A DNA stretch of 64,000 bases from Parcubacteria group bacterium M10-OD1-1 (GTDB lineage: Bacteria; Patescibacteriota; Minisyncoccia; Moranbacterales; UBA2206): assembly GCA_003056145.1 (NCBI GenBank), contig LSNL01000006.1, forward strand, positions 6,119 to 70,118, given 5' to 3'. Shown here in pieces: positions 1-59,371 of this stretch (within the stretch, counting starts at the first letter, position 1; every line of letters begins with the position of its first letter). Below the pieces are notes generated by a model that made no database searches, was not told the origin of the DNA, and saw only the letters and a list, made by a program, of their open reading frames with translations. The position numbers and the translations under genes were made by a program.

Positions 1-284
1 CTCATCTTTAAGATTTTAGGTTTACCGACGCTAGGAGGCAGTAAGAAAATTTTGGCTAATGTTTGCGTATATCTGAAGTTTACTTGTAGCGGAGCGGAAA
101 GTAAATTTGGGTGGAGGCTTTTGTATAAAAGCCGTAACCAGATATACGCTGTTAGCTGATGCATTCCTTTTCTTTTGTTTTCTGATAAGAAAACTTATTT
201 TAAAAAATTTTCAAATTTCTTTTTCTGTTTTGGGCGGAGGGCAGAGGGGAATTGAAGGGGTGAATGCCCGTAGCCCAAAACTCC

Positions 285-947
285 TTATTCTTTTACTTTT
301 ATTCCCAAAGAAACTACGTCTTTCATTAATTTTTCAGGTATTGGAGATAAAAGACGTATCTCTTTTTCATAACCTTTTACTATTTCCTCTCCCTCTTTTA
401 TAATTTGATTTAGTGATGGAATTGAATCAATTTCTAAATCAGCTTTTTCGTAGGTCGGCAATTGATTTTTTTGTCTTTTTTCATTTGTTTCAAAATATTT
501 TTTAAAATTGCTTGAATTAACCAAGCCCCAAATTAAACTTTCATAGAAATATACTTCTAAAACGTGTTGAAAATCCCTATGTTTTAATTGTTTCATGCTC
601 ATCACATCGCTACTTTTAGAAATTTTAACAGGCTTGACGGCTCCTCTAGGATTATCATCATTACCTCTTTCAGCCCATTGCTTTTTTAAATTGTTTACTT
701 CTTCGCTAATATCTAATGACTCTTCACTTTCCCAGTTAGTATCCCGAAACATTGTAGTAATAATCTGTAGAGCTAAATTTGGGCGACATGCACCAATACT
801 TGAGGCCCAGTCAATCATTTGGTCAATTGTAGAATCAAGAACAATACTATTAACAATGGCTTCTGAGTTAAATAGACTACGTCTTCTCGGCCACCCCATA
901 TGACCTAAAAGACCGACAACATAATAAAATCCAAAAATTGATGACAT
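285..947 (-). CDS. hypothetical protein (220 aa), no recognisable domain; sits in the accessory region next to the recombinase
   Basis: Long intact ORF, same strand and direction as the neighbouring accessory genes. No family recognised by eye. Confidence 0.4.
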   Translation of the reverse strand: MSSIFGFYYVVGLLGHMGWPRRRSLFNSEAIVNSIVLDSTIDQMIDWASSIGACRPNLALQIITTMFRDTNWESEESLDISEEVNNLKKQWAERGNDDNPRGAVKPVKISKSSDVMSMKQLKHRDFQHVLEVYFYESLIWGLVNSSNFKKYFETNEKRQKNQLPTYEKADLEIDSIPSLNQIIKEGEEIVKGYEKEIRLLSPIPEKLMKDVVSLGIKVKE

Positions 948-1028
948 ATTTTTTAAGTTAATTTATTTGCACTCTCCTTTGCCCCTCTCTATAAAAAGAA
1001 AAATAAAATTTGTTCATTTTTTGCAAAA

Positions 1029-1868
1029 TTATTGTAATTTTTTTATTTTCTTGTTTTGTAAACTTTTTGCATTCTTTGCAGAGATAGCACTCTTTCCTGT
1101 TTTTTGTTCAATATCTTTCCTTGCTTTTTTAGCTGTATCACCACCCTTTTTAGCAATTTTTTTGCTTTCTAAAAAAGTTTTTGGTTGTTTTTCTTTAGAA
1201 ATTTCTGTTGTTGATACTTCAGCAAGCATATTTAAAACTAATTCAAGGTTTGTCATATTATCCCTCAGGTTTTGTTTTTTGAGACTTTTGAATTTTTTGT
1301 AAGACTTAACACTTTTTCCAGACCATGCTTTTGTGATTTCATCAGTCAAAATGGCAAATTCCAAGCCTTCTTTTACTCCTCTTTCTTGCCATTCATCTGT
1401 AAGTTCTTTACGAACTTCAATTGTTTTGAGTCTTTGATTAATCCATTCTTTAGAATATCCCTTTTTGAGATATGTTTGCATAGCCCTATCAATTGCTAAT
1501 TCTGGATCTTCGGTTTCTTCAATCCTTTCATAACCGACTTTTGCTAACCAAAGCTTAAAAGGCTCTGCTTTTGGTGAAGGAATTGACTGAATAAGCCTTA
1601 AAAGTGATTCTGTCTCAGCTACATCTGTAATCCTCATTTTTCCGTCGTTTGCCATTAATTTCAAACGGCTACAATTTGTAGCCACTTCACTACCTTCTTT
1701 TTTTAACCTTGTTTTCAATACACTCCAATATTTTCTTGGGTTTGCACTTTCTGTTAAAATTCCAATAACATCAATGATTGAAAAATACCAAAGTTCTTTA
1801 TTTTCATCCCAATGACGACGAACTTGTTTTTCATGAAAAAGTACAATTGAAGTATCTTTTTTAGTCAT
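1029..1868 (-). CDS. Bro-N / DinD-like (DNA-damage-inducible protein D family) protein with a Lys-rich C-terminal tail
   Basis: N-terminal region (WYFSIIDVIGILTES...YWSVLKTRLKKEG...SRLKL...ITDVAETESLLRLIQSIPSPKAEPFKLWLAKVGYERI) matches the Bro-N/DinD fold pattern typical of phage and mobile-element genes. Confidence 0.6.
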   Translation of the reverse strand: MTKKDTSIVLFHEKQVRRHWDENKELWYFSIIDVIGILTESANPRKYWSVLKTRLKKEGSEVATNCSRLKLMANDGKMRITDVAETESLLRLIQSIPSPKAEPFKLWLAKVGYERIEETEDPELAIDRAMQTYLKKGYSKEWINQRLKTIEVRKELTDEWQERGVKEGLEFAILTDEITKAWSGKSVKSYKKFKSLKKQNLRDNMTNLELVLNMLAEVSTTEISKEKQPKTFLESKKIAKKGGDTAKKARKDIEQKTGKSAISAKNAKSLQNKKIKKLQ

Positions 1869-2260
1869 ATTTTTAAAATATTATTACCTTAATGTTATAC
1901 TTATATTATACTAAAAAACTATGTTTTTACAATTTATGAATAATCATTTTTTGCGGAGGTACGAAGCAAAAAATATCCGCTTATCCCCTTTATAAATAAA
2001 AGAAAAAGAAATTTGAAAATTTTTTAAAACAATTGGGCGATAGCCCAGAAAAGAAAAGGGATATTTCAGCTAACATCAGGATTATGAGAAGTTTTTGCGT
2101 AGCAAAAATTTGGGTGTAAGAAACTGCAAGTTTCTGGAACCTCATAATCCTTGTTATATTTCCCAAAGGGCTAAAATTTAGTGCAACGTTCCGAAGGAAA
2201 ATTTTAGAGTTTTACATTTAAGAACATATATTAAATATCGACCGAAGGGAGTCAATAATT

Positions 2261-2278
2261 AGAAAAGCCCACCAAAAC
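2261..2278. repeat. left arm of a perfect 18-bp inverted repeat (AGAAAAGCCCACCAAAAC)
   Basis: Exact reverse complement of 2698-2715; the pair tightly brackets ORF 2281-2667. Confidence 0.8.
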
Positions 2279-2280
2279 GT

Positions 2281-2667
2281 CTAATTAGATTCCATAACTG
2301 ATTTTAATTTTTGTATAATATCTTCAGTAAATGGATTGCTCAATTCTCCGTTTTCCATCCATTCAAAATATTCCATTTCTGTCTGGCTATCGCTCAATTT
2401 ACAATAAGTATATCTGACATGATAATTGCCATCTAAATCAGTTAATGTGAATATTTTATTTTCTTGAAAATCTACAACTTTATAGAAATCCCAATCAGAA
2501 TTATCTCCTCTATTTTTATATTGAGTTCCAATTTTTGGAGGATATTCTTCTGCAACTTCTTCTGAAATTGAAGGAATCCATAAATGAGTATTTTTGGGAT
2601 TTGTTGTAAATTCAAAAACTTCTTCAATTGGCTTATTTATGATGATTGTGATTTTATTTTCTTGCAT
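2281..2667 (-). CDS. SRPBCC (START/Bet v1/polyketide-cyclase-like) family small protein
   Basis: 128-aa ORF; N-terminus (IIINKPIEEVFEFTTNPKNTHLW) is typical of the SRPBCC/Polyketide_cyc2 family. Confidence 0.55.
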   Translation of the reverse strand: MQENKITIIINKPIEEVFEFTTNPKNTHLWIPSISEEVAEEYPPKIGTQYKNRGDNSDWDFYKVVDFQENKIFTLTDLDGNYHVRYTYCKLSDSQTEMEYFEWMENGELSNPFTEDIIQKLKSVMESN

Positions 2668-2697
2668 ATAAAATATAGAATTTCAAACATATATAAA

Positions 2698-2715
2698 GTT
2701 TTGGTGGGCTTTTCT
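2698..2715. repeat. right arm of the 18-bp inverted repeat (GTTTTGGTGGGCTTTTCT)
   Basis: Reverse complement of 2261-2278. Lies 30 nt upstream of the SRPBCC start codon and ~105 nt from the recombinase start. Confidence 0.8.
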
Positions 2716-2820
2716 TCGTTCTTAAATGTAAAATTGAATATAACTGGTTTTTATCCAAACTCTATGTCCATATTGTAACAATATCTTGTATGTTATGCAA
2801 ACTTTTGTTATTCTTTGGAT

Positions 2821-3636
2821 ATGAGCGATATTTTGGAGAAAACCGACAGATTATTGCGATTACGCAACTATTCTCCCAAAACCCGTAAAGCATACTTGCT
2901 TTACATTAAAGATTATATCGGGTTTGCTAAAAAATCTGGAATCAAAGATAAACAAAAAGCAATTGAGGATTTTTTGCTTGATAAACAGAAAGGCAAACAG
3001 TCCCCACAAACAATCAATCTTGCACTTAGTGCTGTGAAATTTTTGTATGTAGAGGTTTTAAAGAATCCTCAAAAGATTGATCTAAAATTTGCTAAACGAA
3101 GCAAGAAACTGCCGATTGTATTGTCGCGAGCAGAAATTGAGCGGATTATTGAAGTGACTGATAACCCAAAGTATAAACTCATGATATCCCTCGGGTATGC
3201 CTGTGGTATGAGAGTTAGCGAAGTGACAAAACTTCAAGTGGCAGATTTAGACATTGCTGAACTTGTTGTACATATTAAGGGTGCAAAAGGTAAGAAAGAC
3301 AGAATCAGTGTATTACCAGAAAAACTACAAGACGATTTGAGAAATATTATCGCTGGTAAAAAAGTGTATGATTTTATTTTTCCTTCCAATCGTGGAGGTA
3401 ATCTCACAACGACATCTTTGCAAAAAATGTTTCGTAAAAGTTTGGCAAAGGCACAAATTAGCAAGCCTGCAACCTTCCATTCTTTGCGCCATTCATTCGC
3501 TACACATTTGCTGGAAAACGGAACAGATGTGCGATATGTACAAGAATTGCTAGGGCACTCGAATATTCGCACTACGCAAATTTATACACAAGTTACAAAT
3601 CCCAAATTAAAGAATATTAAAAGTCCGCTAAAATAA
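2821..3636 (+). CDS. tyrosine site-specific recombinase / phage-integrase family (XerC/D-like)
   Basis: N-terminal SAM-like core-binding region; C-terminal catalytic region with R...HSLRHSFATHLL...GH...TQIYTQV (R-H-R-H-Y). Likely start is ATG 2821; the ORF track opens at TTG 2815. Confidence 0.85.
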   Translation: MSDILEKTDRLLRLRNYSPKTRKAYLLYIKDYIGFAKKSGIKDKQKAIEDFLLDKQKGKQSPQTINLALSAVKFLYVEVLKNPQKIDLKFAKRSKKLPIVLSRAEIERIIEVTDNPKYKLMISLGYACGMRVSEVTKLQVADLDIAELVVHIKGAKGKKDRISVLPEKLQDDLRNIIAGKKVYDFIFPSNRGGNLTTTSLQKMFRKSLAKAQISKPATFHSLRHSFATHLLENGTDVRYVQELLGHSNIRTTQIYTQVTNPKLKNIKSPLK

Positions 3637-4553: not shown

Positions 4554-4595
4554 TCTTAGCTTAGTTAAAATCATTAGGTTGGAATTACCTAGAAT

Positions 4596-4631
4596 AAAGC
4601 AAAAACCGTAAAATTTTACGGTTTTTGCTTT
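4596..4631. terminator. bidirectional rho-independent terminator
   Basis: Perfect palindrome AAAGCAAAAACCGTAAAATTTTACGGTTTTTGCTTT with A/T runs on both sides. Lies between convergent prmC (+) and the lysine-rich gene (-). Confidence 0.7.
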
Positions 4632-4709
4632 ATTTAATAGTAACTTTGTACTAAAAATAATCTTCAACTTAATAATTTTATTATTTCATTGAATCAACTT
4701 TCTAAAAGA

Positions 4710-4937
4710 TTATTTTTTTCGTCTTTTAGCAGTAGTTCTTTTAGCTGGTTTTCTTTTTGTAGTTTTCTTTACAGTTTTTTTAGCTGGTTTTCTTTTTGTA
4801 GTTTTCTTTACAGTTTTTTTAGCTGGTTTTCTTTTTGTAGTTTTCTTTACAACTTTTTTAGCTGGTTTTCTTCTTGTAGTTTTCTTTACAACTTTTTTAG
4901 CTGGTTTTCTTTTTGTAGTTTTCTTTTTAGTTGCCAT
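4710..4937 (-). CDS. lysine-rich histone-H1-like / Hc-like small basic DNA-binding protein (repeat K-R-K-P-A-K-K-x-V-K-K-T-T)
   Basis: Minus-strand ORF of 13-aa basic repeats. Strong SD (GAGGTGA) sits 8 nt upstream of ATG 4937 (MATKKK...). The plus-strand ORF 4689-5036 is a low-complexity mirror artefact. Confidence 0.6.
   Translation of the reverse strand: MATKKKTTKRKPAKKVVKKTTRRKPAKKVVKKTTKRKPAKKTVKKTTKRKPAKKTVKKTTKRKPAKRTTAKRRKK
4735..4930. repeat. about five tandem copies of a 39-nt unit (tagctggttttctttttgtagttttctttacagttttttt)
   Basis: Directly visible tandem periodicity. It encodes the 13-aa basic repeat of the histone-like protein. Confidence 0.85.
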
Positions 4938-5399
4938 AATTATCACCTCGCTTTCTATTTTTATTTTTTTAAACTGAGCTTTGTATTCTCTATTAAGAAT
5001 ATTTTTGTTTTTGTTTTCGACCTATTGTTTATTTAAATTATATCTTATTTGTATTTTATTGCAATAGAAAAATTATCCACAGTTCAAAAAAAGAAACTAA
5101 AGAAATTATTCTTAAAAAAATTTCAGAGAAAAAATATTCTTCAGCTATTTTAATGATTTTTATTTTATATTTTATATTTAATTACTAAAAATTTTAGCTA
5201 CTGCTCAAAAGAACTTTTTATATTAAAACCTAATCTTAATGTTTGTCTAGTTGACGACTTGGCTAACTTTGATAAAATTCACTATAAGAAGCCTCAAAGG
5301 CAATCGCTTCAACGCAAGCACATTAAAAATTCCGTTTTAAACGGCTCAGCTTTCATAGTTGAGAATAATAAACTAAAGATAGAAAGGAAGGTGAAAAAT

Positions 5400-47714: not shown

Positions 47715-48283
47715 TAATTTTTTTATTATTTTAATTATTAGTTTTGTTATTTTTCAATAAATTCAATAACTTTTTAATTATACAACTTTTTATTTTAAAA
47801 AACAAATTCTAGTCTTGTCTAATACAAAATAAGCCCGAAGGCTTATTTGGCAGAGATAATAACCACAATTTTAGGCACCAGATACAGTTTTTTGAAACTA
47901 GTCCTTACAAAAAATGACAATAGCTCTAAGAAGAAAATAATGGAAATTAAAAAAGAAAATATTTGAAAAAATTAAGTGATTTTATAATAAACTAGTCTAA
48001 ATTGTAAGTTGTGTTTCAGGAGTCATTTGAGAATTAAAATATACTGCATAATTTATGGTCCGTGTCAGGTTTTCTATTCTACACAAACAAGCTCCACTAT
48101 TACAGGCATGCCTCCCAGTTATATCTAGTTTGCTTTATTATTTATATATATTCACTATCTATTTAACAAGAGGTGTATCTTCTTCCAAAACTTTGATACA
48201 CCTCCTGAATAGCTATTCTCTTTTTTTACTAATCATTCAGTATTATCCTCAGAAAACCATTTCGTGAAAATAATCAACTAACC

Positions 48284-50695
48284 CTAGAACCAACTAAATG
48301 GATTATACCAATGAGACTCACTCTGAGTCTTTTGAGGAGCTGAGGTTTTTTCTGATTGAGTAGGAGCAGTAGTTTCTGATTGAGTAGGAGTTGGATTACT
48401 TTCAGTTGTCTGATTACCTTCTGTTTGAGTTTGAGTCTTAGCTGAATTAGCTTGATTGGATTGAGATTGAGTATTACTTTCTGCTGAAGAGGTAGTCTTA
48501 GCTGATGTCTTAGCTGATGTCTTAGCTGATGTCTTAGCTGATGTCTTAGCTGATGATTGAATTGCTAAACCAACCTTGAGATTGCCAGTTTTGATAGTGT
48601 AGTTACCCGCTCTATCATAAGCTTTAACTTTTATAGGATATACTCCAGCTGTAAGATTGCCGGGAAGAGTAAATTCAGGAGTATGATTATTGAAAATCCT
48701 TCCTTGAAAATAAATTTTATATTTTTTTATCTTGTCGTTATCAGTAGCTAAAAACTTGATAGTTTGTCCTTTGTGATAGCTAATCGTAGTTGAAGGGAAT
48801 TGGGAGAAAATTGGTTTGAGAGTATCTGTTCTGACAATAATAGGTTTTGACAATCCTGAAGAATTACCTGCTTGATCATAAACTCTTATGTAATAAGTGT
48901 CTTTGCTAGATCTATTTTTTGGAAGTTTTATCTTCCAACTTCCATCTCTATCTATATCTACTGTTCCTATGCGATGTTTATTACCTTTTTTGTTTTTTCT
49001 ATATAACACAACGGTTCCCTTCTCTGCTTCTGAGTTTGTTCCTCTGAGAGTGGGTTTTCTCTTCTTTGAGAAAATAATGGAATGTTTCTTCTTGTTTAAG
49101 CTAGTACCGTTGTGACTTGATAATTTAATGCTACTTCTTTTACTACTAGGAGCTGTCTTGTCATAAAGAATATTTAAAGTTGTGCTATCACTCTCATAAT
49201 CAATATAGTCTCGGAATTTAACATAGAGCTTTTTATTCCCTTCAGAGTTAAAAGTATATACTTTAGTTTTTTGATATGGTTCCCAAGTGGCTCCAGAGAA
49301 ATCAGAGTTTTCACTAATCATCATATCTTTAGCGTCTGTAGCAGTAAAGTTAAGAGTCACTTGGTTATCTGTTGTAACAGAAGGATAGTTGATGGAAATG
49401 TTTTTTGGACCGAGATGAAAGATAAGAACACGGTTATTAGTATTAGTATCAGAAACAAAAAGCTTGTTATTAATCGCGAAAAGCATTGAAACATTACTTG
49501 TTTTTTTAGCTGATAATCCAACTGAGTTAGTTGTTAAATCAGGTTGTCCTAAGACATAATCAGCGGAAATATCATTGGTAGTAGGAATGTGAGAAAAAAT
49601 AGTTACTCTAGAATTACTCCATTCACCGATAAATATTTTTCCTTGTTGTTCAATAACGCTTTGAGGATATTCCTCGGTTTTTGCCGTTGGACCAGTTAAT
49701 CCTTGATTCGGTGAACCACTTACCATATCTGGTTGACCGATAACCGTATCAGCGGAAGCATCATTAGTAGTAGGAATATGATTATAGATAAGAGTTCTTG
49801 AATTTCCATTATCAGCAATGTATAATTTTCCATCATTATTAATATAAAGACCGCTAGGATCACTTAAAGTTTTAGCACTAACAGTTCCTCCTTGATTAGC
49901 AGAGTTGCTAATCATATCCGGCTGTCCAATCACTACATCAGCGGAAGCATCATTGGTGGTAGGAATGTGATTATAGATAAGAACACGATTATTGCCCCGG
50001 TCAAGAATAAACATTTTACCTTGATATACAAAAACATCGTGAGGATAATCTATCGTATTAGCGTTGGCTGTTGCTTCTCCTTGATTAGTAGAGTTGCTAA
50101 TCATATCCGGCTGTCCAATCACTACATCAGCGGAAGCATCATTGGTAGTAGGAATGTGATTATAGATAAGCACTCTATTATTACCTCCACGGGATGGTCC
50201 ACCTTCCCCATCGCAAATAAATAGTTTTCCTTGATAAACAAAAATCCCAGTTGGACCAAAAAGAGTATTCGCTCCCACACTTCCACCTTGATCGGCATCT
50301 CCACTCGTAAAATCTTTCTGTCCAATAACTACATCAGCGGAAGCATCATTAGTAGTAGGAATGTGATTATAGATAAGCACTCTATTGCTTCTTTCTTCTG
50401 CTATAATTAATTTCGTTCCATCGCTCCAAATTCCTTTAGGAAAATCTATTGTATTCGCTCCAACACTCCCTCCTTGGTTTGCATCGCCACTTGTGAAATT
50501 TGGCTGACCAATTACTACATCCGCATTCTTATCAATTCCAATAGCTTGAGCCGAATTAGTATTAACAAAAGCTAGACCAACGATTAATAATGCTACTCCA
50601 GCAATACTTTTAATTCTTTGGTTTAGTTTTAATTTTGAATTTTGTTCTTCTAAATTGCTAGAATTCAATTTCATTTTTTGCAATACTTTTTTCAT
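48284..50695 (-). CDS. secreted NHL-repeat beta-propeller surface protein (803 aa) with Ig-like region, AKTS repeats, Thr/Ser/Gln-rich tail and C-terminal HWYNPFSWF
   Basis: Signal peptide ...AGVALLIVGLAFVNTNSAQA. Six or more repeats of NRVLIYNHIPTTNDASADVVIGQPD. Confidence 0.7.
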   Translation of the reverse strand: MKKVLQKMKLNSSNLEEQNSKLKLNQRIKSIAGVALLIVGLAFVNTNSAQAIGIDKNADVVIGQPNFTSGDANQGGSVGANTIDFPKGIWSDGTKLIIAEERSNRVLIYNHIPTTNDASADVVIGQKDFTSGDADQGGSVGANTLFGPTGIFVYQGKLFICDGEGGPSRGGNNRVLIYNHIPTTNDASADVVIGQPDMISNSTNQGEATANANTIDYPHDVFVYQGKMFILDRGNNRVLIYNHIPTTNDASADVVIGQPDMISNSANQGGTVSAKTLSDPSGLYINNDGKLYIADNGNSRTLIYNHIPTTNDASADTVIGQPDMVSGSPNQGLTGPTAKTEEYPQSVIEQQGKIFIGEWSNSRVTIFSHIPTTNDISADYVLGQPDLTTNSVGLSAKKTSNVSMLFAINNKLFVSDTNTNNRVLIFHLGPKNISINYPSVTTDNQVTLNFTATDAKDMMISENSDFSGATWEPYQKTKVYTFNSEGNKKLYVKFRDYIDYESDSTTLNILYDKTAPSSKRSSIKLSSHNGTSLNKKKHSIIFSKKRKPTLRGTNSEAEKGTVVLYRKNKKGNKHRIGTVDIDRDGSWKIKLPKNRSSKDTYYIRVYDQAGNSSGLSKPIIVRTDTLKPIFSQFPSTTISYHKGQTIKFLATDNDKIKKYKIYFQGRIFNNHTPEFTLPGNLTAGVYPIKVKAYDRAGNYTIKTGNLKVGLAIQSSAKTSAKTSAKTSAKTSAKTTSSAESNTQSQSNQANSAKTQTQTEGNQTTESNPTPTQSETTAPTQSEKTSAPQKTQSESHWYNPFSWF

Positions 50696-51116
50696 ACTTT
50701 TAGTTTTAGTTTTAAAAATTAATTATCAAAATACCGAAGAAGGACAAATATCTTTAAAAATCTATCCCGACTACGAAGTTAATTACATACCCTTTGAAGA
50801 ATTTTTCTTCAATTATTGATATAATTAATTTGACAAAAAGTCATTTAATTCGCAGTTGATATTTTATTATCTTTATTCTATATATTTTTTAAATTTGAGT
50901 CAAATAAAAAATACTTTTAAATAATTACTTCTATTTTACTCTGCCCCTTTAAGGTTGTCAAATTATTTTTCAGTCTTGTTTCAATATTTTATTTCTGTAT
51001 TCCTTTTTCCATTCCTGCAAAGGCAAAAATCTAGTCACTAAGTCTTGTTTTAGCGTAAAAACTTCTAAATTAGTTTGTTTCTTCAATTATTTTAATCGCA
51101 AAATTTAAAAAATAAT

Positions 51117-51151
51117 AAAAAACCTTGCAAAATAGAATTTCGCAAGGTTTT
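51117..51151 (-). terminator. duplicated copy of the ftsZ terminator hairpin (inside repeat copy 1)
   Basis: AACCTTGCAAAATAGAATTTCGCAAGGTTTT, identical to 58083-58117. Confidence 0.6.
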
Positions 51152-51178
51152 AAAAGTAGCTAAAACATTTAACTAAAT

Positions 51179-51247
51179 TTATTTTCCCATTTTTCTCCGA
51201 ATAAAAGCTGGAATCTCTAACTCATCATCTTCATCATTAAGTTCTTT
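51179..51247 (-). pseudogene. 3'-terminal 23-codon fragment of ftsZ (...DDELEIPAFIRRKMGK*) carried at the end of repeat copy 1
   Basis: Identical to the genuine ftsZ 3' end at 58145-58213. Similarity breaks at 51248. Confidence 0.75.
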
Positions 51248-55033: not shown

Positions 55034-55273
55034 ATGTTATATAAAGTATTATACTACACGTTAGTAACTGTTATCCAAGGCTATGCATACTCTCAGTATT
55101 ACTATAAATAATATCTAGTTTGCTTTATTATTTTTATATATTCACTATCTATTTAACAAGAGGTGTACCTTCTTCCAAAACTTTGATACACCTCTTAAAT
55201 AGCTATTCTCTTTTTTTACTAATCATTCAGTATTATCCTCAGAAAACCATTTCGTGAAAATAATCAACTAACC

Positions 55274-57661
55274 CTAGAACCAACTAAATGGATTGTACCA
55301 ATGAGACTCACTCTGAGTCTTTTGAGGAGCTGAGGTTTTTTCTGATTGAGTAGGAGTTGGATTACTTTCAGTTGTCTGATTACCTTCTGTTTGAGTTTGA
55401 GTCTTAGCTGAATTAGCTTGATTGGATTGAGATTGAGTATTACTTTCTGCTGAAGAGGTAGTCTTAGCTGATGTCTTAGCTGATGTCTTAGCTGATGTCT
55501 TAGCTGATGTCTTAGCTGATGATTGAATTGCTAAACCAACCTTGAGATTGCCAGTTTTGATAGTGTAGTTACCCGCTCTATCATAAGCTTTAACTTTTAT
55601 AGGATATACTCCAGCTGTAAGATTGCCGGGAAGAGTAAATTCAGGAGTATGATTATTGAAAATCCTTCCTTGAAAATAAATTTTATATTTTTTTATCTTG
55701 TCGTTATCAGTAGCTAAAAACTTGATAGTTTGTCCTTTGTGATAGCTAATCGTAGTTGAAGGGAATTGGGAGAAAATTGGTTTGAGAGTATCTGTTCTGA
55801 CAATAATAGGTTTTGACAATCCTGAAGAATTACCTGCTTGATCATAAACTCTTATGTAATAAGTGTCTTTGCTAGATCTATTTTTTGGAAGTTTTATCTT
55901 CCAACTTCCATCTCTATCTATATCTACTGTTCCTATGCGATGTTTATTACCTTTTTTGTTTTTTCTATATAACACAACGGTTCCCTTCTCTGCTTCTGAG
56001 TTTGTTCCTCTGAGAGTGGGTTTTCTCTTCTTTGAGAAAATAATGGAATGTTTCTTCTTGTTTAAGCTAGTACCGTTGTGACTTGATAATTTAATGCTAC
56101 TTCTTTTACTACTAGGAGCTGTCTTGTCATAAAGAATATTTAAAGTTGTGCTATCACTCTCATAATCAATATAGTCTCGGAATTTAACATAGAGCTTTTT
56201 ATTCCCTTCAGAGTTAAAAGTATATACTTTAGTTTTTTGATATGGTTCCCAAGTGGCTCCAGAGAAATCAGAGTTTTCACTAATCATCATATCTTTAGCG
56301 TCTGTAGCAGTAAAGTTAAGAGTCACTTGGTTATCTGTTGTAACAGAAGGATAGTTGATGGAAATGTTTTTTGGACCGAGATGAAAGATAAGAACACGGT
56401 TATTAGTATTAGTATCAGAAACAAAAAGCTTGTTATTAATCGCGAAAAGCATTGAAACATTACTTGTTTTTTTAGCTGATAATCCAACTGAGTTAGTTGT
56501 TAAATCAGGTTGTCCTAAGACATAATCAGCGGAAATATCATTGGTAGTAGGAATGTGAGAAAAAATAGTTACTCTAGAATTACTCCATTCACCGATAAAT
56601 ATTTTTCCTTGTTGTTCAATAACGCTTTGAGGATATTCCTCGGTTTTTGCCGTTGGACCAGTTAATCCTTGATTCGGTGAACCACTTACCATATCTGGTT
56701 GACCGATAACCGTATCAGCGGAAGCATCATTAGTAGTAGGAATATGATTATAGATAAGAGTTCTTGAATTTCCATTATCAGCAATGTATAATTTTCCATC
56801 ATTATTAATATAAAGACCGCTAGGATCACTTAAAGTTTTAGCACTAACAGTTCCTCCTTGATTAGCAGAGTTGCTAATCATATCCGGCTGTCCAATCACT
56901 ACATCAGCGGAAGCATCATTGGTGGTAGGAATGTGATTATAGATAAGAACACGATTATTGCCCCGGTCAAGAATAAACATTTTACCTTGATATACAAAAA
57001 CATCGTGAGGATAATCTATCGTATTAGCGTTGGCTGTTGCTTCTCCTTGATTAGTAGAGTTGCTAATCATATCCGGCTGTCCAATCACTACATCAGCGGA
57101 AGCATCATTGGTAGTAGGAATGTGATTATAGATAAGCACTCTATTATTACCTCCACGGGATGGTCCACCTTCCCCATCGCAAATAAATAGTTTTCCTTGA
57201 TAAACAAAAATCCCAGTTGGACCAAAAAGAGTATTCGCTCCCACACTTCCACCTTGATCGGCATCTCCACTCGTAAAATCTTTCTGTCCAATAACTACAT
57301 CAGCGGAAGCATCATTAGTAGTAGGAATGTGATTATAGATAAGCACTCTATTGCTTCTTTCTTCTGCTATAATTAATTTCGTTCCATCGCTCCAAATTCC
57401 TTTAGGAAAATCTATTGTATTCGCTCCAACACTCCCTCCTTGGTTTGCATCGCCACTTGTGAAATTTGGCTGACCAATTACTACATCCGCATTCTTATCA
57501 ATTCCAATAGCTTGAGCCGAATTAGTATTAACAAAAGCTAGACCAACGATTAATAATGCTACTCCAGCAATACTTTTAATTCTTTGGTTTAGTTTTAATT
57601 TTGAATTTTGTTCTTCTAAATTGCTAGAATTCAATTTCATTTTTTGCAATACTTTTTTCAT
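55274..57661 (-). CDS. secreted NHL-repeat beta-propeller surface protein, paralogue (795 aa; 8-aa deletion TTAPTQSE in the C-terminal tail relative to copy 1)
   Basis: Protein identical to 48284-50695 apart from the tail indel. Confidence 0.7.
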   Translation of the reverse strand: MKKVLQKMKLNSSNLEEQNSKLKLNQRIKSIAGVALLIVGLAFVNTNSAQAIGIDKNADVVIGQPNFTSGDANQGGSVGANTIDFPKGIWSDGTKLIIAEERSNRVLIYNHIPTTNDASADVVIGQKDFTSGDADQGGSVGANTLFGPTGIFVYQGKLFICDGEGGPSRGGNNRVLIYNHIPTTNDASADVVIGQPDMISNSTNQGEATANANTIDYPHDVFVYQGKMFILDRGNNRVLIYNHIPTTNDASADVVIGQPDMISNSANQGGTVSAKTLSDPSGLYINNDGKLYIADNGNSRTLIYNHIPTTNDASADTVIGQPDMVSGSPNQGLTGPTAKTEEYPQSVIEQQGKIFIGEWSNSRVTIFSHIPTTNDISADYVLGQPDLTTNSVGLSAKKTSNVSMLFAINNKLFVSDTNTNNRVLIFHLGPKNISINYPSVTTDNQVTLNFTATDAKDMMISENSDFSGATWEPYQKTKVYTFNSEGNKKLYVKFRDYIDYESDSTTLNILYDKTAPSSKRSSIKLSSHNGTSLNKKKHSIIFSKKRKPTLRGTNSEAEKGTVVLYRKNKKGNKHRIGTVDIDRDGSWKIKLPKNRSSKDTYYIRVYDQAGNSSGLSKPIIVRTDTLKPIFSQFPSTTISYHKGQTIKFLATDNDKIKKYKIYFQGRIFNNHTPEFTLPGNLTAGVYPIKVKAYDRAGNYTIKTGNLKVGLAIQSSAKTSAKTSAKTSAKTSAKTTSSAESNTQSQSNQANSAKTQTQTEGNQTTESNPTPTQSEKTSAPQKTQSESHWYNPFSWF

Positions 57662-58082
57662 ACTTTTAGTTTTAGTTTTAAAAATTAATTATCAAAATAC
57701 CGAAGAAGGACAAATATCTTTAAAAATCTATCCCGACTACGAAGTTAATTACATACCCTTTGAAGAATTTTTCTTCAATTATTGATATAATTAATTTGAC
57801 AAAAAGTCATTTAATTCGCAGTTGATATTTTATTATCTTTATTCTATATATTTTTTAAATTTGAGTCAAATAAAAAATACTTTTAAATAATTACTTCTAT
57901 TTTACTCTGCCCCTTTAAGGTTGTCAAATTATTTTTCAGTCTTGTTTCAATATTTTATTTCTGTATTCCTTTTTCCATTCCTGCAAAGGCAAAAATCTAG
58001 TCACTAAGTCTTGTTTTAGCGTAAAAACTTCTAAATTAGTTTGTTTCTTCAATTATTTTAATCGCAAAATTTAAAAAATAAT

Positions 58083-58117
58083 AAAAAACCTTGCAAAATA
58101 GAATTTCGCAAGGTTTT
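58083..58117 (-). terminator. rho-independent terminator of ftsZ
   Basis: Minus-strand CCTTGCGAAATTCTATTTTGCAAGG followed by TTTTTTATT. Confidence 0.65.
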
Positions 58118-58144
58118 AAAAGTAGCTAAAACATTTAACTAAAT

Positions 58145-59371
58145 TTATTTTCCCATTTTTCTCCGAATAAAAGCTGGAATCTCTAACTCATCATCTTCAT
58201 CATTAAGTTCTTTTTCTTTTTGACTTTGAAAAGAACTTTTAGTTGCTTTAGGTGGAACTTTATCTTCAATGATCATACTAGACTCAAATTTTTCTGGAAA
58301 AGTTATTTTTGGTTCAGATTCTATTTCTTGATTTTGATTTTGATCTAATTCCTTTTTTTGAAAATTCTCAGTAGAAATTCTAGATATTTTTTCTAAAGGT
58401 GATTCACTGGCATGATCGCTATCAAATCCAGTTGCCACGACTGTAACTTGAATTTCTCCCTTTTTCACCGCTTCATCAACTACTGCTCCAAAAATAACCT
58501 TAGCATTAGGATCTATAGACTCTGTAATAATATTAGCTGCTTCATTTATTTCTAACATCGTTAAGTCAGTTGAACCACTAACATTAAATAAAACTCCTTT
58601 TGCTCCATCAATAGAAAGTTCTAATAATGGACTATTAATAGCAGCCTTAGCTGCATCAGCAGAACGATTTTCACCTGAGCCAATTCCAATCCCCATTAAA
58701 GCACTTCCGCTATCAGACATAATAGCTTTAACATCGGCAAAATCCACATTAACAATTCCTGGTTTAGTTATTAAATCAGAAATTCCTTGCACGCCTTGTC
58801 TTAAAACATCATCTACTATTTTGAAAGAGTTGATTAAGGTAGTTTTCTTATCAATAACTTGCAATAATCTATCATTAGGAATAGTGATTAAAGTATCCAC
58901 TCTTTCTTTTAGATTTTCTAAAGCTTCTTCGGCAATAGCTCTTCTTTGCGCTCCCTCAAAACCAAAAGGTTTAGTTACAACAGCCACAGTCAAAGCTCCT
59001 GACTCCTTAGCTGTTTCAGCAACAATCGGAGCAGCTCCAGAACCAGTTCCTCCACCAAGCCCACAAGTTACAAAAACCATATCAGCTCCTTTTAAAACTT
59101 CTTGAATTTCGTCACGATTTTCTTCAGCAGCTTGACGCCCAACATCTGGGTTCATTCCAGCACCTAAACCTTTAGTTAAATTTTTTCCAATATGAATTTT
59201 CTCCGCTGCTCTATTATGATGTAAATCTTGAGCATCTGTATTGATAGCCACAAATTCTACGCCCTTCAATTTTGCCTCAATCATCCGACTAATTACATTC
59301 CCTCCGGATCCGCCAACGCCAACTACTTTAATTCTAGCAAAAGTTTCTACTGGTGGTTTTATTTCAGCCAT
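58145..59371 (-). CDS. ftsZ: cell-division GTPase FtsZ
   Basis: GGGTGSG tubulin signature, T7 loop, C-terminal ...DDELEIPAFIRRK peptide. Confidence 0.95.
   Translation of the reverse strand: MAEIKPPVETFARIKVVGVGGSGGNVISRMIEAKLKGVEFVAINTDAQDLHHNRAAEKIHIGKNLTKGLGAGMNPDVGRQAAEENRDEIQEVLKGADMVFVTCGLGGGTGSGAAPIVAETAKESGALTVAVVTKPFGFEGAQRRAIAEEALENLKERVDTLITIPNDRLLQVIDKKTTLINSFKIVDDVLRQGVQGISDLITKPGIVNVDFADVKAIMSDSGSALMGIGIGSGENRSADAAKAAINSPLLELSIDGAKGVLFNVSGSTDLTMLEINEAANIITESIDPNAKVIFGAVVDEAVKKGEIQVTVVATGFDSDHASESPLEKISRISTENFQKKELDQNQNQEIESEPKITFPEKFESSMIIEDKVPPKATKSSFQSQKEKELNDEDDELEIPAFIRRKMGK

What the first reader, a model, noticed from the sequence alone, without database searches (positions are those of the whole stretch)
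2261..3636. Perfect 18-bp inverted repeats bracket a 455-bp gene-containing segment beside a tyrosine recombinase: candidate invertible or excisable DNA switch
AGAAAAGCCCACCAAAAC at 2261-2278 and its exact reverse complement at 2698-2715 enclose the SRPBCC gene (2281-2667). One arm sits 2 nt beyond its stop and the other 30 nt before its start. A tyrosine recombinase gene begins ~105 nt from the right arm, divergently oriented. A recombinase gene adjacent to inverted repeats flanking a short segment is the signature used to detect phase-variable invertons (fim switch, Bacteroides promoter switches). Here inversion would move the whole ORF relative to an external promoter. Other readings are a tiny TIR-bounded mobile cassette or an operator/terminator pair.
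Basis: partly seen in the sequence, partly recalled or inferred. Interest (0 to 1): 0.6.

Follow-up and report, generated by a model that had tools for sequence, protein, structure and literature searches.

The report
Integron-like gene cassette in CPR bacterium
The inverted repeat is real, but it most likely marks the two ends of an excisable gene cassette next to an integron-like recombinase found across many Candidate Phyla Radiation (CPR) bacteria, a gene-capture system I could not find described, and not an invertible switch.

Summary
The 18-bp perfect inverted repeat (IR; 2261-2278 / 2698-2715) is confirmed. It continues as a second perfect 16-bp block (2210-2225 / 2718-2733) and an 8-bp block (2153-2160 / 2737-2744).

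It is probably not an inversion switch. The region left of the recombinase gene (2821-3636) looks like an integron-type cassette array:
- Every ORF points away from the recombinase.
- Each cassette ends in a conserved, covarying structured element: TAAC, a bulge, a 10-12-bp stem, a three-way junction, then GTTA. These are at 2064-2163 and 50-161.
- Cassette borders fall at TAAC| (2074|2075, 2744|2745).

They extend its recombination hairpin into a ~250-nt structure (z = -11.9).

The same layout recurs next to 56-87%-identical recombinases in about 80 CPR species. Model hits were 58 of 59 upstream and 58 of 59 on one strand, and 45 of 47 cassette ORFs were co-oriented. The same SRPBCC cassette sits in other contexts elsewhere, with homology starting at G|TTATAT and with compensatory arm changes.

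The recombinase is closest to integron integrases but lacks their defining extra domain. I found no literature on this. All mechanism is inferred from sequence.

The parts
2821..3636 (+). Tyrosine recombinase gene (271 aa; an alternative TTG start is at 2815). It is integron-integrase/Xer-like and lacks the IntI-specific additional domain.
   Evidence: Pfam Phage_integrase plus Phage_int_SAM_4. The best NCBIfam hit is TIGR02249 integron integrase at 225 bits, below the 265-bit cut-off and in two stretches. The best PDB hit is VchIntIA 2a3v, E 7e-50, aligned in two pieces that skip its residues ~211-240.
2741..2761 (.). attI-like site: TAAC|TGGTTTTTATCCAAAC. The cassette border lies after C2744. 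The right half-site TTATCCAAAC is repeated directly as TTATGCAAACT at 2793-2803.
   Evidence: Upstream regions of about 58 related loci are conserved from the recombinase ATG up to ...AAC| and diverge to the left of it. Eight independent assemblies have a contig or scaffold break at (T)AAC.
2772..2801 (-). Pc-like promoter pointing into the cassette array (TTTGCA, 18 nt, TGtTACAAT).
   Evidence: A consensus promoter scan only. It lies in the block that is conserved between genomes. Not tested functionally.
2075..2744 (-). Cassette 1 (670 bp): the SRPBCC ORF, its flanking arms and its attC-like element.
   Evidence: The borders are defined by where homology stops: 2074 in 7 loci and 2739-2742 in more than 20 loci. 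The same cassette sits in other contexts, with homology starting at G|TTATAT.
2281..2667 (-). Cargo ORF, 128 aa, SRPBCC/START-like.
   Evidence: Pfam Polyketide_cyc2, E 2e-5, just below the cut-off. 379 homologues were found, the best 120 listed at 69-88% identity, mostly on very short contigs.
2698..2715 (.). In mRNA sense it is the upstream, cargo-specific 'clamp' AGAAAAGCCCACCAAAAC.
   Evidence: A compensatory change in L097: CCCAGC / GCTGGG.
2261..2278 (.). In mRNA sense it reads GTTTTGGTGGGCTTTTCT and sits 2 nt after the stop codon.
2718..2733 (.). Second IR block, right copy. It belongs to the conserved cassette-start module G|TTATATTCAA-TTTTACATTTAAGAAC.
   Evidence: The 26-nt module was found in 29 metagenome contigs behind many different upstream partners.
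2210..2225 (.). Second IR block, left copy (TTTTACATTTAAGAAC on the + strand).
2737..2744 (.). R-box half AATATAAC at the cassette's attI-proximal end. It pairs with 2153-2160.
   Evidence: run of 8. Compensatory GATATAAC / GTTATATC in L098; L101 has GATATAAC but its partner half lies off the contig.
2064..2163 (+). attC-like element of cassette 1. TAAC 2071-2074, bulge, L stem 2078-2088 / 2141-2151, three-way junction with the conserved TTTGGGTG, and own R box GTTATATT 2153-2160.
   Evidence: Covariance model R1: 102 bits, E 2.5e-26. Fold z = -4.4. Covariation across the family.
2161..2209 (+). Extra hairpins in the left half of the extended palindrome: CCCAAAGGG, and a 38-nt hairpin at 2172-2209.
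   Evidence: Predicted in the folds. Conserved in L023, L097 and L101.
61..2074 (-). Cassette 2: a Bro-N/DinD-like gene (1029-1868) and a 220-aa ORF (285-947). It is bracketed by its own ~80-bp IR (150-229 / 1998-2074).
   Evidence: Its start module is joined directly to attI in L028, L030 and L036. It has a - strand terminator at 2047-2034 and a promoter at 1932-1905.
50..161 (+). attC-like element of cassette 2. It has TAAT at 57-60 in place of TAAC, and GTTAGCTGA at 151-159.
   Evidence: R1: 40 bits, E 1.6e-8. Fold z = -5.2.

Best explanation
The IR marks the two ends of a mobile gene cassette in an integron-like platform.

The platform is an ~890-bp module. It holds a recombinase gene that is IntI/Xer-like but lacks the IntI additional domain. 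It also holds an attI-like site whose crossover falls at TAAC|T (2744|2745), and a promoter-like site facing the cassettes.

Cassettes are stacked to the left, all read on the - strand. Each ends, on the side away from attI, in an attC-like element. That element folds on one strand into an R-box stem (TAAC/GTTA), a 2-3-nt bulge, a 10-12-bp L stem and a three-way-junction tip.

The crossover lies inside a much longer palindrome. Integration therefore leaves one half of the palindrome at the cassette's attI-proximal end and the other half next to the element, with the ORF in between.

In an excised circle, or in single-stranded DNA, they would pair into a ~250-nt rod whose large loop is the ORF. 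The 18-bp GC-rich block would act as the clamp that closes that loop.

Shown here: the anatomy, covariation, cassette borders, co-orientation, recurrence across genomes, and the same cassette in different contexts. Inferred: that the recombinase catalyses excision and integration at TAAC, that a folded single strand (the + or 'bottom' strand) is the substrate, and what the long arms are for.
For: 1. A covariance model built from 5 elements found 64 matches in 1.1 Mb searched on both strands. After setting aside the copies in L006, which holds the same DNA as the window, 58 of 59 lie upstream of the recombinase, where only 35.5% of the searched bases lie (P about 3e-25). 58 of 59 are on the recombinase strand (P about 1e-16). 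Arrays reach 5 elements per 10 kb.

2. Covariation: 90.4% of cells are paired, against 36-50% when partners are slid. 23 of 26 pairs show compensatory changes. 301 cells changed on both sides, against 91 +/- 8 in shuffles. TAAC and GTTA are nearly invariant.

3. The unit is the cassette. The ..nnnnTAAC flank of a border is complementary (run of at least 8) to the GTTAnnnn flank of the element to its left in 22 of 55 cases. It matches its own element in 1 of 57 and the right neighbour in 2 of 22.

4. The longest ORF is on the - strand in 45 of 47 inter-element intervals and usually fills the interval. Cargo is diverse: NUDIX, radical SAM, isochorismatase, PPDK, MBL, HNH and others.

5. Borders. 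Homology to other genomes stops at 2739-2742 on the attI side in more than 20 loci, and at 2074 at the start of cassette 2 in 7 loci. The cassette 2 start is fused directly to attI in L028, L030 and L036.

6. The SRPBCC cassette is the second cassette in L098 and sits in other contexts in L097, L100, L101 and L109. Homology starts at G|TTATAT in each locus whose upstream end is present.

7. L023 has the same element but different cargo and different, still complementary, arms.

8. The joined cassette ends fold as ssDNA at -59.9 kcal/mol (z = -11.9). The same length of array DNA gives -34.7 (z = -3.75).

9. The + strand folds better than the - strand in 48 of 57 elements with DNA parameters and 51 of 57 with RNA parameters.

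10. Contigs of three assemblies end at 2744 and one starts at 2741. Six further species' contigs start at (T)AAC|T and one scaffold gap sits there. This is what variable partners on both sides of the crossover would produce.

11. The recombinase is closest to integron integrases.
Against: - No experiment or read-level data shows recombination.
- The recombinase lacks the ~30-residue additional domain that the literature treats as necessary for integron recombination (PMC9668308 and PMC8138268). It scores below the IntI family cut-off.
- The bulged bases sit on the 5' half of the folded strand, next to the crossover. From memory of the VchIntIA-VCR structure, canonical attC sites have them on the other half.
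- In 33 of 55 adjacent pairs the flank complementarity was below 8. This may reflect undetected or degenerate elements, but that was not checked.
- Some SRPBCC homologues sit outside any array with decayed arms (L094, L099).
- Contig breaks could also arise from co-assembled strains that share the module.
- The alignment used for the pair counts was fitted to the model.
Confidence: 0.78

Rival explanations
1. Invertible switch. The recombinase inverts the 419-bp segment between the 18-bp arms and flips the SRPBCC gene relative to an outside promoter.
For: A perfect IR brackets a short segment beside a divergent tyrosine recombinase. The recombinase gives weak hits to tyrosine-type DNA invertase families (60 bits against a cut-off of 221). 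Several assemblies break near the arms, at 2715 and 2741-2744.
Against: - Arm sequences differ between cassettes and share no core.
- The conserved recombinase-associated sites are direct repeats.
- 45 of 47 cassette ORFs are co-oriented.
- All 6 assemblies of this organism and 6 homologous cassettes elsewhere have the same orientation relative to the R boxes and the element.
- The contig breaks fall at the TAAC crossover, not at the inner edges of the IR, where an inversion polymorphism would break a de Bruijn graph.
Confidence: 0.04
2. The arms act mainly in RNA. In the cassette mRNA the 5'-UTR arm (A-tract plus GC stem) pairs with the arm just after the stop codon (GC stem plus U-tract). 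This would form a long-range, terminator-like hairpin that ends transcription or protects both mRNA ends. This could coexist with the DNA role.
For: In every cassette of this backbone family the cargo-hugging IR has the same polarity in mRNA sense: A-tract plus GC stem upstream, GC stem plus T-tract 2-10 nt after the stop. This held for about 7 distinct arm types. The Pc-like promoter would place the upstream arm in the 5' UTR. Cassette 2 begins with an ordinary local terminator, which suggests that cassettes are insulated from one another.
Against: - A hairpin with a loop of 420-2000 nt is kinetically unlikely to act as an intrinsic terminator.
- The attC-like elements fold better on the non-mRNA strand.
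- The 16-bp block and the R box pair as part of the same rod and are explained by DNA recombination.
- There are no transcript data.
Confidence: 0.1
3. The conserved site next to the recombinase is the chromosome's dif site, and the recombinase is the housekeeping Xer. On this view the array is a pile of Xer-exploiting integrated elements (IMEX-like), not a dedicated gene-capture platform.
For: The site resembles dif: ATAA, 7 nt, TTAT, with XerD-arm-like TTATGCAAACT (dif consensus from memory). Some single-Xer systems, such as XerS/difSL, keep dif next to the xer gene (established knowledge). The published classification treats candidate-phyla 'Cand' recombinases as Xer substitutes (PMC8138268). 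CTX-phi-type IMEX elements also use folded ssDNA.
Against: - GC skew keeps its sign across the locus in long contigs, for example L034, L023, L042, L046 and L068.
- The genomic position is not syntenic. prmC is adjacent only here, out of 56 loci with enough downstream sequence.
- One MAG has two such loci, L032 and L069.
- Identity of 80-87% across CPR classes points to horizontal spread.
- The units are single promoterless-looking ORFs, not phage or plasmid genomes.
Confidence: 0.06

Closest known systems
Integrons, especially sedentary chromosomal integrons with homogeneous attC sites such as the Vibrio VCR arrays
   Same: - A tyrosine recombinase gene divergent from a co-oriented array of mostly single-ORF cassettes.
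- An attI-like site and an outward promoter-like site next to the gene.
- Each cassette ends in an imperfect palindromic element with conserved ..AAC / GTT.. boxes, a bulge and a variable tip.
- Borders lie at G|TT (AA|C on the folded strand).
- The box beyond the crossover travels with the cassette.
- The strand complementary to the ORFs folds better.
- Cargo is diverse and accessory.
- Element types are shared between unrelated cargo.
   Different: - The recombinase lacks the IntI additional domain and is only 271 aa.
- The elements are three-way junctions of about 100 nt, embedded in a palindrome of up to ~270 nt, whereas canonical attC sites are 57-141 nt (length range from memory).
- The palindrome extends 45-80 nt beyond the crossover, so each integrated cassette is bracketed by long IRs.
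- A cargo-specific GC-rich IR hugs the ORF.
- The bulge is on the crossover-proximal half.
- The hosts are CPR/Patescibacteria.
- At least some cassettes carry their own promoter and terminator.
Xer/dif recombination and IMEX elements (CTX-phi attP hairpin); 'Cand' subgroup of simple tyrosine recombinases (Smyshlyaev et al. 2021, PMC8138268)
   Same: The recombinase has simple Xer-like domain architecture. The core is dif-like, with ATAA / TTAT arms around a ~7-nt centre. A folded single-stranded hairpin may mimic a duplex site.
   Different: It is not at the replication terminus by GC skew. There are arrays of single-gene cassettes rather than phage genomes. The module is not syntenic between genomes. 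By sequence it is closer to IntI than to XerC, XerD or XerA.
pdif modules of Acinetobacter plasmids
   Same: Discrete gene modules bracketed by inverted recombinase-related sites and found in different contexts.
   Different: pdif modules are bounded by conserved 28-bp XerC/D sites in alternating orientation. Here the bracketing IRs are cassette-specific, and the conserved sites are direct repeats of a folded element.
Invertons (fim switch, Bacteroides promoter switches)
   Same: A tyrosine recombinase gene lies next to a short IR-bracketed segment.
   Different: Invertons use IRs that contain the recombinase core, and both orientations are found. Here the arms have no shared core and the orientation is fixed.

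Membership tests
Integron (as defined for IntegronFinder and in the literature) | An IntI tyrosine recombinase carrying the IntI-specific additional domain around patch III | tested here: not met
   The alignment to VchIntIA (2a3v) is split and skips its residues ~211-240. TIGR02249 scores 225 bits against a cut-off of 265, in two stretches. The domain is called defining or necessary in PMC9668308 and PMC8138268.
Integron | An attI site adjacent to the integrase gene, serving as the insertion point of cassettes | tested here: met
   A conserved block upstream of the gene ends at TAAC|. Different cassettes abut it in different genomes. This is comparative evidence only.
Integron | An array of co-oriented cassettes, each an ORF followed by an attC-type site | tested here: met
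   58 of 59 elements are upstream and on one strand. 45 of 47 ORFs are co-oriented.
Integron | attC architecture: R''-L''...L'-R' with conserved AAC/GTT, extrahelical bases, a variable tip, and a length of about 57-141 nt | tested here: inconclusive
   TAAC/GTTA are nearly invariant. There is a 2-3-nt bulge and a covarying L stem. But the tip is a conserved three-way junction, the bulge is on the other half, and the full palindrome is ~250 nt. The IntegronFinder attC model could not be run.
Integron | The crossover at G|TT moves the distal R-box remainder with the cassette | tested here: met
   Flank complementarity follows the cassette, not the element. Homology starts at G|TTATAT in different contexts.
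Integron | Recombination of the folded bottom strand of attC | not testable with these tools
   There is only an indirect hint: the + (bottom) strand folds better in 48 of 57 elements.
Integron | A Pc promoter driving promoterless cassettes | tested here: inconclusive
   A consensus-type - strand promoter at 2801-2772 lies in the conserved block. There are no expression data, and cassette 2 has its own promoter-like site.
Inverton / phase-variable DNA inversion switch | IRs that contain the recombinase core, and both orientations present in populations or relatives | tested here: not met
   The arms are cassette-specific. Only one orientation is seen in all assemblies and homologous cassettes. 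No read-level test was possible.
Xer/dif chromosome dimer resolution site | The site is located at the replication terminus, where GC skew switches sign | tested here: not met
   GC skew keeps its sign across the locus in most long contigs, within +/-10 kb. The locus is not syntenic.

The most novel reading that the evidence does not exclude
CPR/Patescibacteria carry a previously unrecognised class of integron. It consists of:
- a horizontally spreading ~890-bp module: an attI-like site plus an IntI-like recombinase that works without the 'essential' additional domain;
- long attC sites with a three-way-junction tip;
- cassettes whose cargo ORF is enclosed by a cargo-specific, split-terminator-like inverted repeat.

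That enclosing repeat could be a footprint of how cassettes are made, which is an open question for all integrons. Standard integron finders would miss the system because they require the additional domain.
Probability: 0.55. Interest if true: 0.88.

Novelty: new variant of a known kind. Interest (0 to 1): 0.8.

Why it matters
CPR bacteria have tiny genomes, and how they exchange genes is poorly understood. A gene-capture platform shared at 56-87% recombinase identity across many CPR classes would be a major route of accessory-gene flow in a large part of the bacterial tree. The cargo seen here consists of assorted small enzymes.

It would also show that integron-type cassette recombination does not require the IntI additional domain. 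That would widen the definition of integrons and the search criteria used to find them.

The conserved backbone around unrelated cargo, together with the cargo-hugging inverted repeats, gives a concrete handle on the unsolved question of how cassettes are generated.

In practice, these loci systematically break metagenome assemblies at the TAAC crossover. That affects MAG completeness for CPR genomes.

Tried and rejected
- **Rfam.** Gathering thresholds on the whole window, and E up to 10 on 1-3000, found nothing relevant. The elements are not a described RNA family or ribozyme.
- **Generic scan.** A Python scan for AAC-stem...stem-GTT gave too many false positives in this AT-rich DNA, so I dropped it in favour of a covariance model.
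- **Alignment.** MAFFT misaligned elements with hairpins of different lengths. I solved this by seeding the model with 5 elements of similar length.
- **attI regex.** My first regex was wrong by one position and was corrected.
- **dif/terminus hypothesis.** Tested by GC skew and not supported.
- **Synteny with prmC.** Absent elsewhere.
- **Short contigs.** I asked whether the very short SRPBCC contigs of 665-683 nt are single cassettes or circles. The two I could read (L100, L101) are ordinary fragments that cross cassette borders. One had no DNA available.
- **Inverted copies.** A search for one among all recovered contigs found none.
- **Literature.** Seven searches found no paper on integrons or cassette arrays in CPR. 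The library lacks most subscription journals, so this is not proof of absence.
- I first placed the cassette 1/2 border at 2075|2076. The correct border is 2074|2075 (onwards).
Full report
**1. The observation**

The sequence AGAAAAGCCCACCAAAAC is at 2261-2278 and its exact reverse complement is at 2698-2715. It occurs nowhere else in the window, even with 3 mismatches allowed.

The 128-aa SRPBCC-like ORF (2281-2667, - strand) lies between the arms. One arm is 2 nt past its stop codon and the other 30 nt before its ATG. A tyrosine recombinase gene starts at 2821 (or TTG 2815) on the + strand.

A perfect 18-mer IR within 3 kb appeared in 9 of 200 Markov simulations, so on its own it is only suggestive. 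But the repeat is longer than reported:
- A collinear perfect 16-bp block lies at 2210-2225 / 2718-2733.
- An 8-bp block lies at GTTATATT 2153-2160 / AATATAAC 2737-2744.
- The left half carries two insertions, at 2226-2260 and 2161-2209.

A second, ~80-bp IR (150-229 / 1998-2074) brackets the next two genes: a Bro-N/DinD-like gene at 1029-1868 and a 220-aa ORF at 285-947.

**2. A structured repeat in direct orientation**

Next to each IR pair sits a ~100-nt element, at 50-161 and 2064-2163, both on the + strand. Its layout is TAAC, then a purine, a 2-3-nt bulge, a 10-12-bp stem, AAG, hairpin 1, TTTGGGTG, hairpin 2, GAAC, the returning stem, then T-GTTA. The stems differ between the two copies but stay paired (z = -5.2 and -4.4). 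Rfam has nothing like it.

The same DNA occurs in GCA_003056095.1, which runs 3.2 kb further left. It shows more copies between further - strand genes (SfsA, a serine hydrolase and others).

**3. The recombinase**

- Its best NCBIfam match is 'integron integrase' TIGR02249: 225 bits, cut-off 265, in two stretches. XerA, XerD and XerC follow.
- Its best solved relative is the Vibrio integron integrase VchIntIA (E 7e-50). The alignment is in two pieces that skip VchIntIA residues ~211-240, which is the IntI-specific additional domain.
- The literature calls that domain defining or essential (PMC9668308; PMC8138268).
- Xer-related recombinases of candidate phyla have been grouped as 'Cand' and assumed to replace Xer.

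**4. Related loci**

A scan of one genome per GTDB species returned 80 loci with recombinases that are mostly 56-87% identical. They come from very many CPR classes.

Nucleotide homology between genomes covers only window 2741 to about 3630, that is, the upstream site plus the gene. The neighbouring prmC gene is adjacent in none of 56 other loci. One MAG has two such loci. The ~890-bp module therefore moves, or is moved.

The upstream regions align from the ATG up to a sharp edge at ...yAAC|TnGTTTTTATnCrAAC. This edge has dif-like ATAA / TTAT symmetry and a second direct copy of the arm (TTATGCAAACT). GC skew does not change sign across the locus in long contigs, so this is not a terminus dif site.

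**5. The element family**

A covariance model built from 5 elements found 64 matches in 1.1 Mb on both strands. After setting aside the copies in L006, which duplicates the window, 58 of 59 lie upstream of the recombinase. Only 35.5% of the searched bases lie there (P about 3e-25). 58 of 59 are on its strand (P about 1e-16). Within the 64-kb window only the two elements above match.

On the resulting alignment:
- 90.4% of cells are paired, against 36-50% for slid partners.
- 23 of 26 pairs show compensatory changes.
- TAAC and GTTA are almost invariant.

The alignment is model-fitted, which inflates these pairing figures somewhat. The slide control and the number of different pair types argue for a real structure.

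**6. What the unit is**

- The flank ending in TAAC at each border is complementary (run of at least 8 from AAC/GTT) to the GTTA flank of the element to its left in 22 of 55 cases. It matches its own element in 1 of 57 and the right neighbour in 2 of 22.
- The unit is therefore [element - GTTAnnnn - ORF - nnnnTAAC] on the + strand. On the ORF strand this is a cassette that starts at G|TT and ends with its own element, exactly as in integrons.
- The longest ORF is on the - strand in 45 of 47 intervals and usually fills the interval.
- Cargo is diverse.
- The + strand, which is the bottom strand relative to the ORFs, folds better in 48 of 57 elements with DNA parameters and 51 of 57 with RNA parameters.

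**7. Evidence that the cassettes move**

- Homology of the attI side stops at 2739-2742 in more than 20 loci. Homology of the cassette 2 start stops at 2074 in 7 loci. That start is fused directly to attI in L028, L030 and L036.
- The SRPBCC protein has 379 homologues, the best 120 at 69-88% identity, mostly on very short contigs.
- In L098 the same cassette is second in an array, behind an Ldh_2 cassette and next to a split recombinase gene. In L097, L100, L101 and L109 it has yet other neighbours. In every locus whose upstream end is present, homology begins at G|TTATAT.
- A metagenome scan for the 26-nt cassette-start block found 29 contigs. The block is always preceded by G and has many different upstream partners: attI in the window and L128, and varied element 3' ends elsewhere.
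- Contig ends cluster at the crossover. Three assemblies end at 2744 and one starts at 2741, so they overlap by TAAC. Six other species' contigs start at (T)AAC|T, and one scaffold gap sits there. This is what a de Bruijn graph yields when both sides of a 4-nt shared core have several partners. I read it as population-level cassette turnover, but co-assembled strains could give the same result.

**8.

Joining the two ends of cassette 1 (2690-2744 plus 2075-2285) gives a single-stranded DNA fold of -59.9 kcal/mol (z = -11.9). In it the 18-bp block, the 16-bp block and the R box all pair beneath the element. The same length of contiguous array DNA gives -34.7 (z = -3.75). The IR is therefore a long recombination-site palindrome, split by integration.

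Selection for pairing is visible:
- L097 has CCCAGC / GCTGGG where the window has CCCACC / GGTGGG.
- L098 has GTTATATC / GATATAAC where the window has GTTATATT / AATATAAC.
- L023 has the same element and hairpin but different cargo and different, still complementary, arms.
- L098 also has three uncompensated mismatches, so the constraint is not absolute.

**9. An unexplained layer**

Cassettes that share this backbone carry unrelated cargo, with ORFs of 128, 178, 298, 325, 331 and 433 aa. The backbone is a 5' module, G|TTATATTCAA-TTTTACATTTAAGAAC, and a 3' module, AATTATTGACTCCCTTCGGTCGA...GTTCTTAAATGTAAAA-hairpin-AATATAAC-element.

Between backbone and cargo there is always a cargo-specific perfect IR of 10-18 bp that hugs the ORF. 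In mRNA sense its polarity is always A-tract plus GC stem upstream, and GC stem plus T-tract just after the stop. The 16-bp block and the R box belong to the conserved extended site.

The IR looks like an intrinsic terminator split by the ORF. It could be a GC clamp closing the ORF loop of a rod-like folded cassette. It could be a long-range terminator or a 5'-3' mRNA pairing. Or it could be a footprint of cassette genesis. I cannot decide between these.

**10. Expression context (consensus scans only)**

- A - strand promoter-like site at 2801-2772 in the conserved block points into the array.
- Cassette 2 starts with a - strand terminator (2047-2034) and has its own promoter-like site (1932-1905).

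**11. Verdict**

The inverton reading is not supported. The 'mobile cassette / excisable' reading is supported by comparative evidence.

The system works like an integron but fails one defining membership test, the additional domain. It also differs in site architecture, so I file it as a new variant of a known kind. I found no description of it in the searchable literature. That library is incomplete.

No recombination event has been observed directly, and all mechanism is inferred from sequence.

Noticed in passing
window 4593-4634: A perfect 42-bp palindrome (AATAAAGCAAAAACCGTAAAA / TTTTACGGTTTTTGCTTTATT) lies just after prmC. Two Logan contigs end inside it (4622, 4628). It is probably a bidirectional terminator that also breaks assemblies.
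   Followed up: partly
window 4700-4971: About six tandem copies of a 39-bp unit. On the - strand they encode a 78-aa lysine-rich repeat protein (4710-4946, KKTTKRKPAKK...), which looks histone-like or H1-like. The LSNQ contig ends inside the repeats.
   Followed up: no
window 48121-51247 and 55111-58213: A 3.1-kb direct duplication at 99% identity. Each copy covers an ~800-aa - strand ORF (48284-50695; 55274-57661) with internal 106-bp, 69-bp and 45-bp repeats.
   Followed up: partly
window 231-284: A conserved hairpin, GTTTTGGGCGGAGGGCAGAGGGGAATTGAAGGGGTGAATGCCCGTAGCCCAAAAC, lies just after the stop of the 220-aa ORF. It recurs at 77-93% identity in L027, L054, L080 and L036 behind other cargo. 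Its role is unknown.
   Followed up: no
L097 3940-4000 and 4560-4620; L100 95-125 and 600-640: Some arrays use minimal sites in place of the three-way junction, for example TTTAAC-A-GGGCCC-T-GTG|TTATATT and GCATAAC-A-GGAATTCC-T-GTG|TTAAAT. The covariance model misses them, so element counts are lower bounds.
   Followed up: no
L006 1441-1598, L006 340-422, L014 8900-8965: These are chimeric or truncated elements. In some, the 5' L-stem of one type is joined to the 3' L-stem of another. In others, a 5' half ends at TTTGG|ATAAC and is followed by a new element. This suggests recombination inside elements or secondary sites.
   Followed up: no
L076 (Altiarchaeales MAG, MCBF01000001.1); P0067 and P0103 (labelled Nanoarchaeota): A 60%-identical recombinase with the attI-like site and an element sits on a 1.39-Mb contig labelled archaeal. 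SRPBCC cassette homologues are labelled Nanoarchaeota. This is either cross-domain spread or mis-binning.
   Followed up: no
L098 1633-2509: The recombinase next to an array that carries the SRPBCC cassette is split into two ORFs (155 aa and 99 aa). It may be a decaying platform.
   Followed up: no
L094/L095/L096 and L099: SRPBCC homologues at 83-87% identity sit outside any array. They keep the 18-nt sequence after the stop codon but have a lost or decayed upstream arm and a truncated element. They look like fossilised cassettes.
   Followed up: partly
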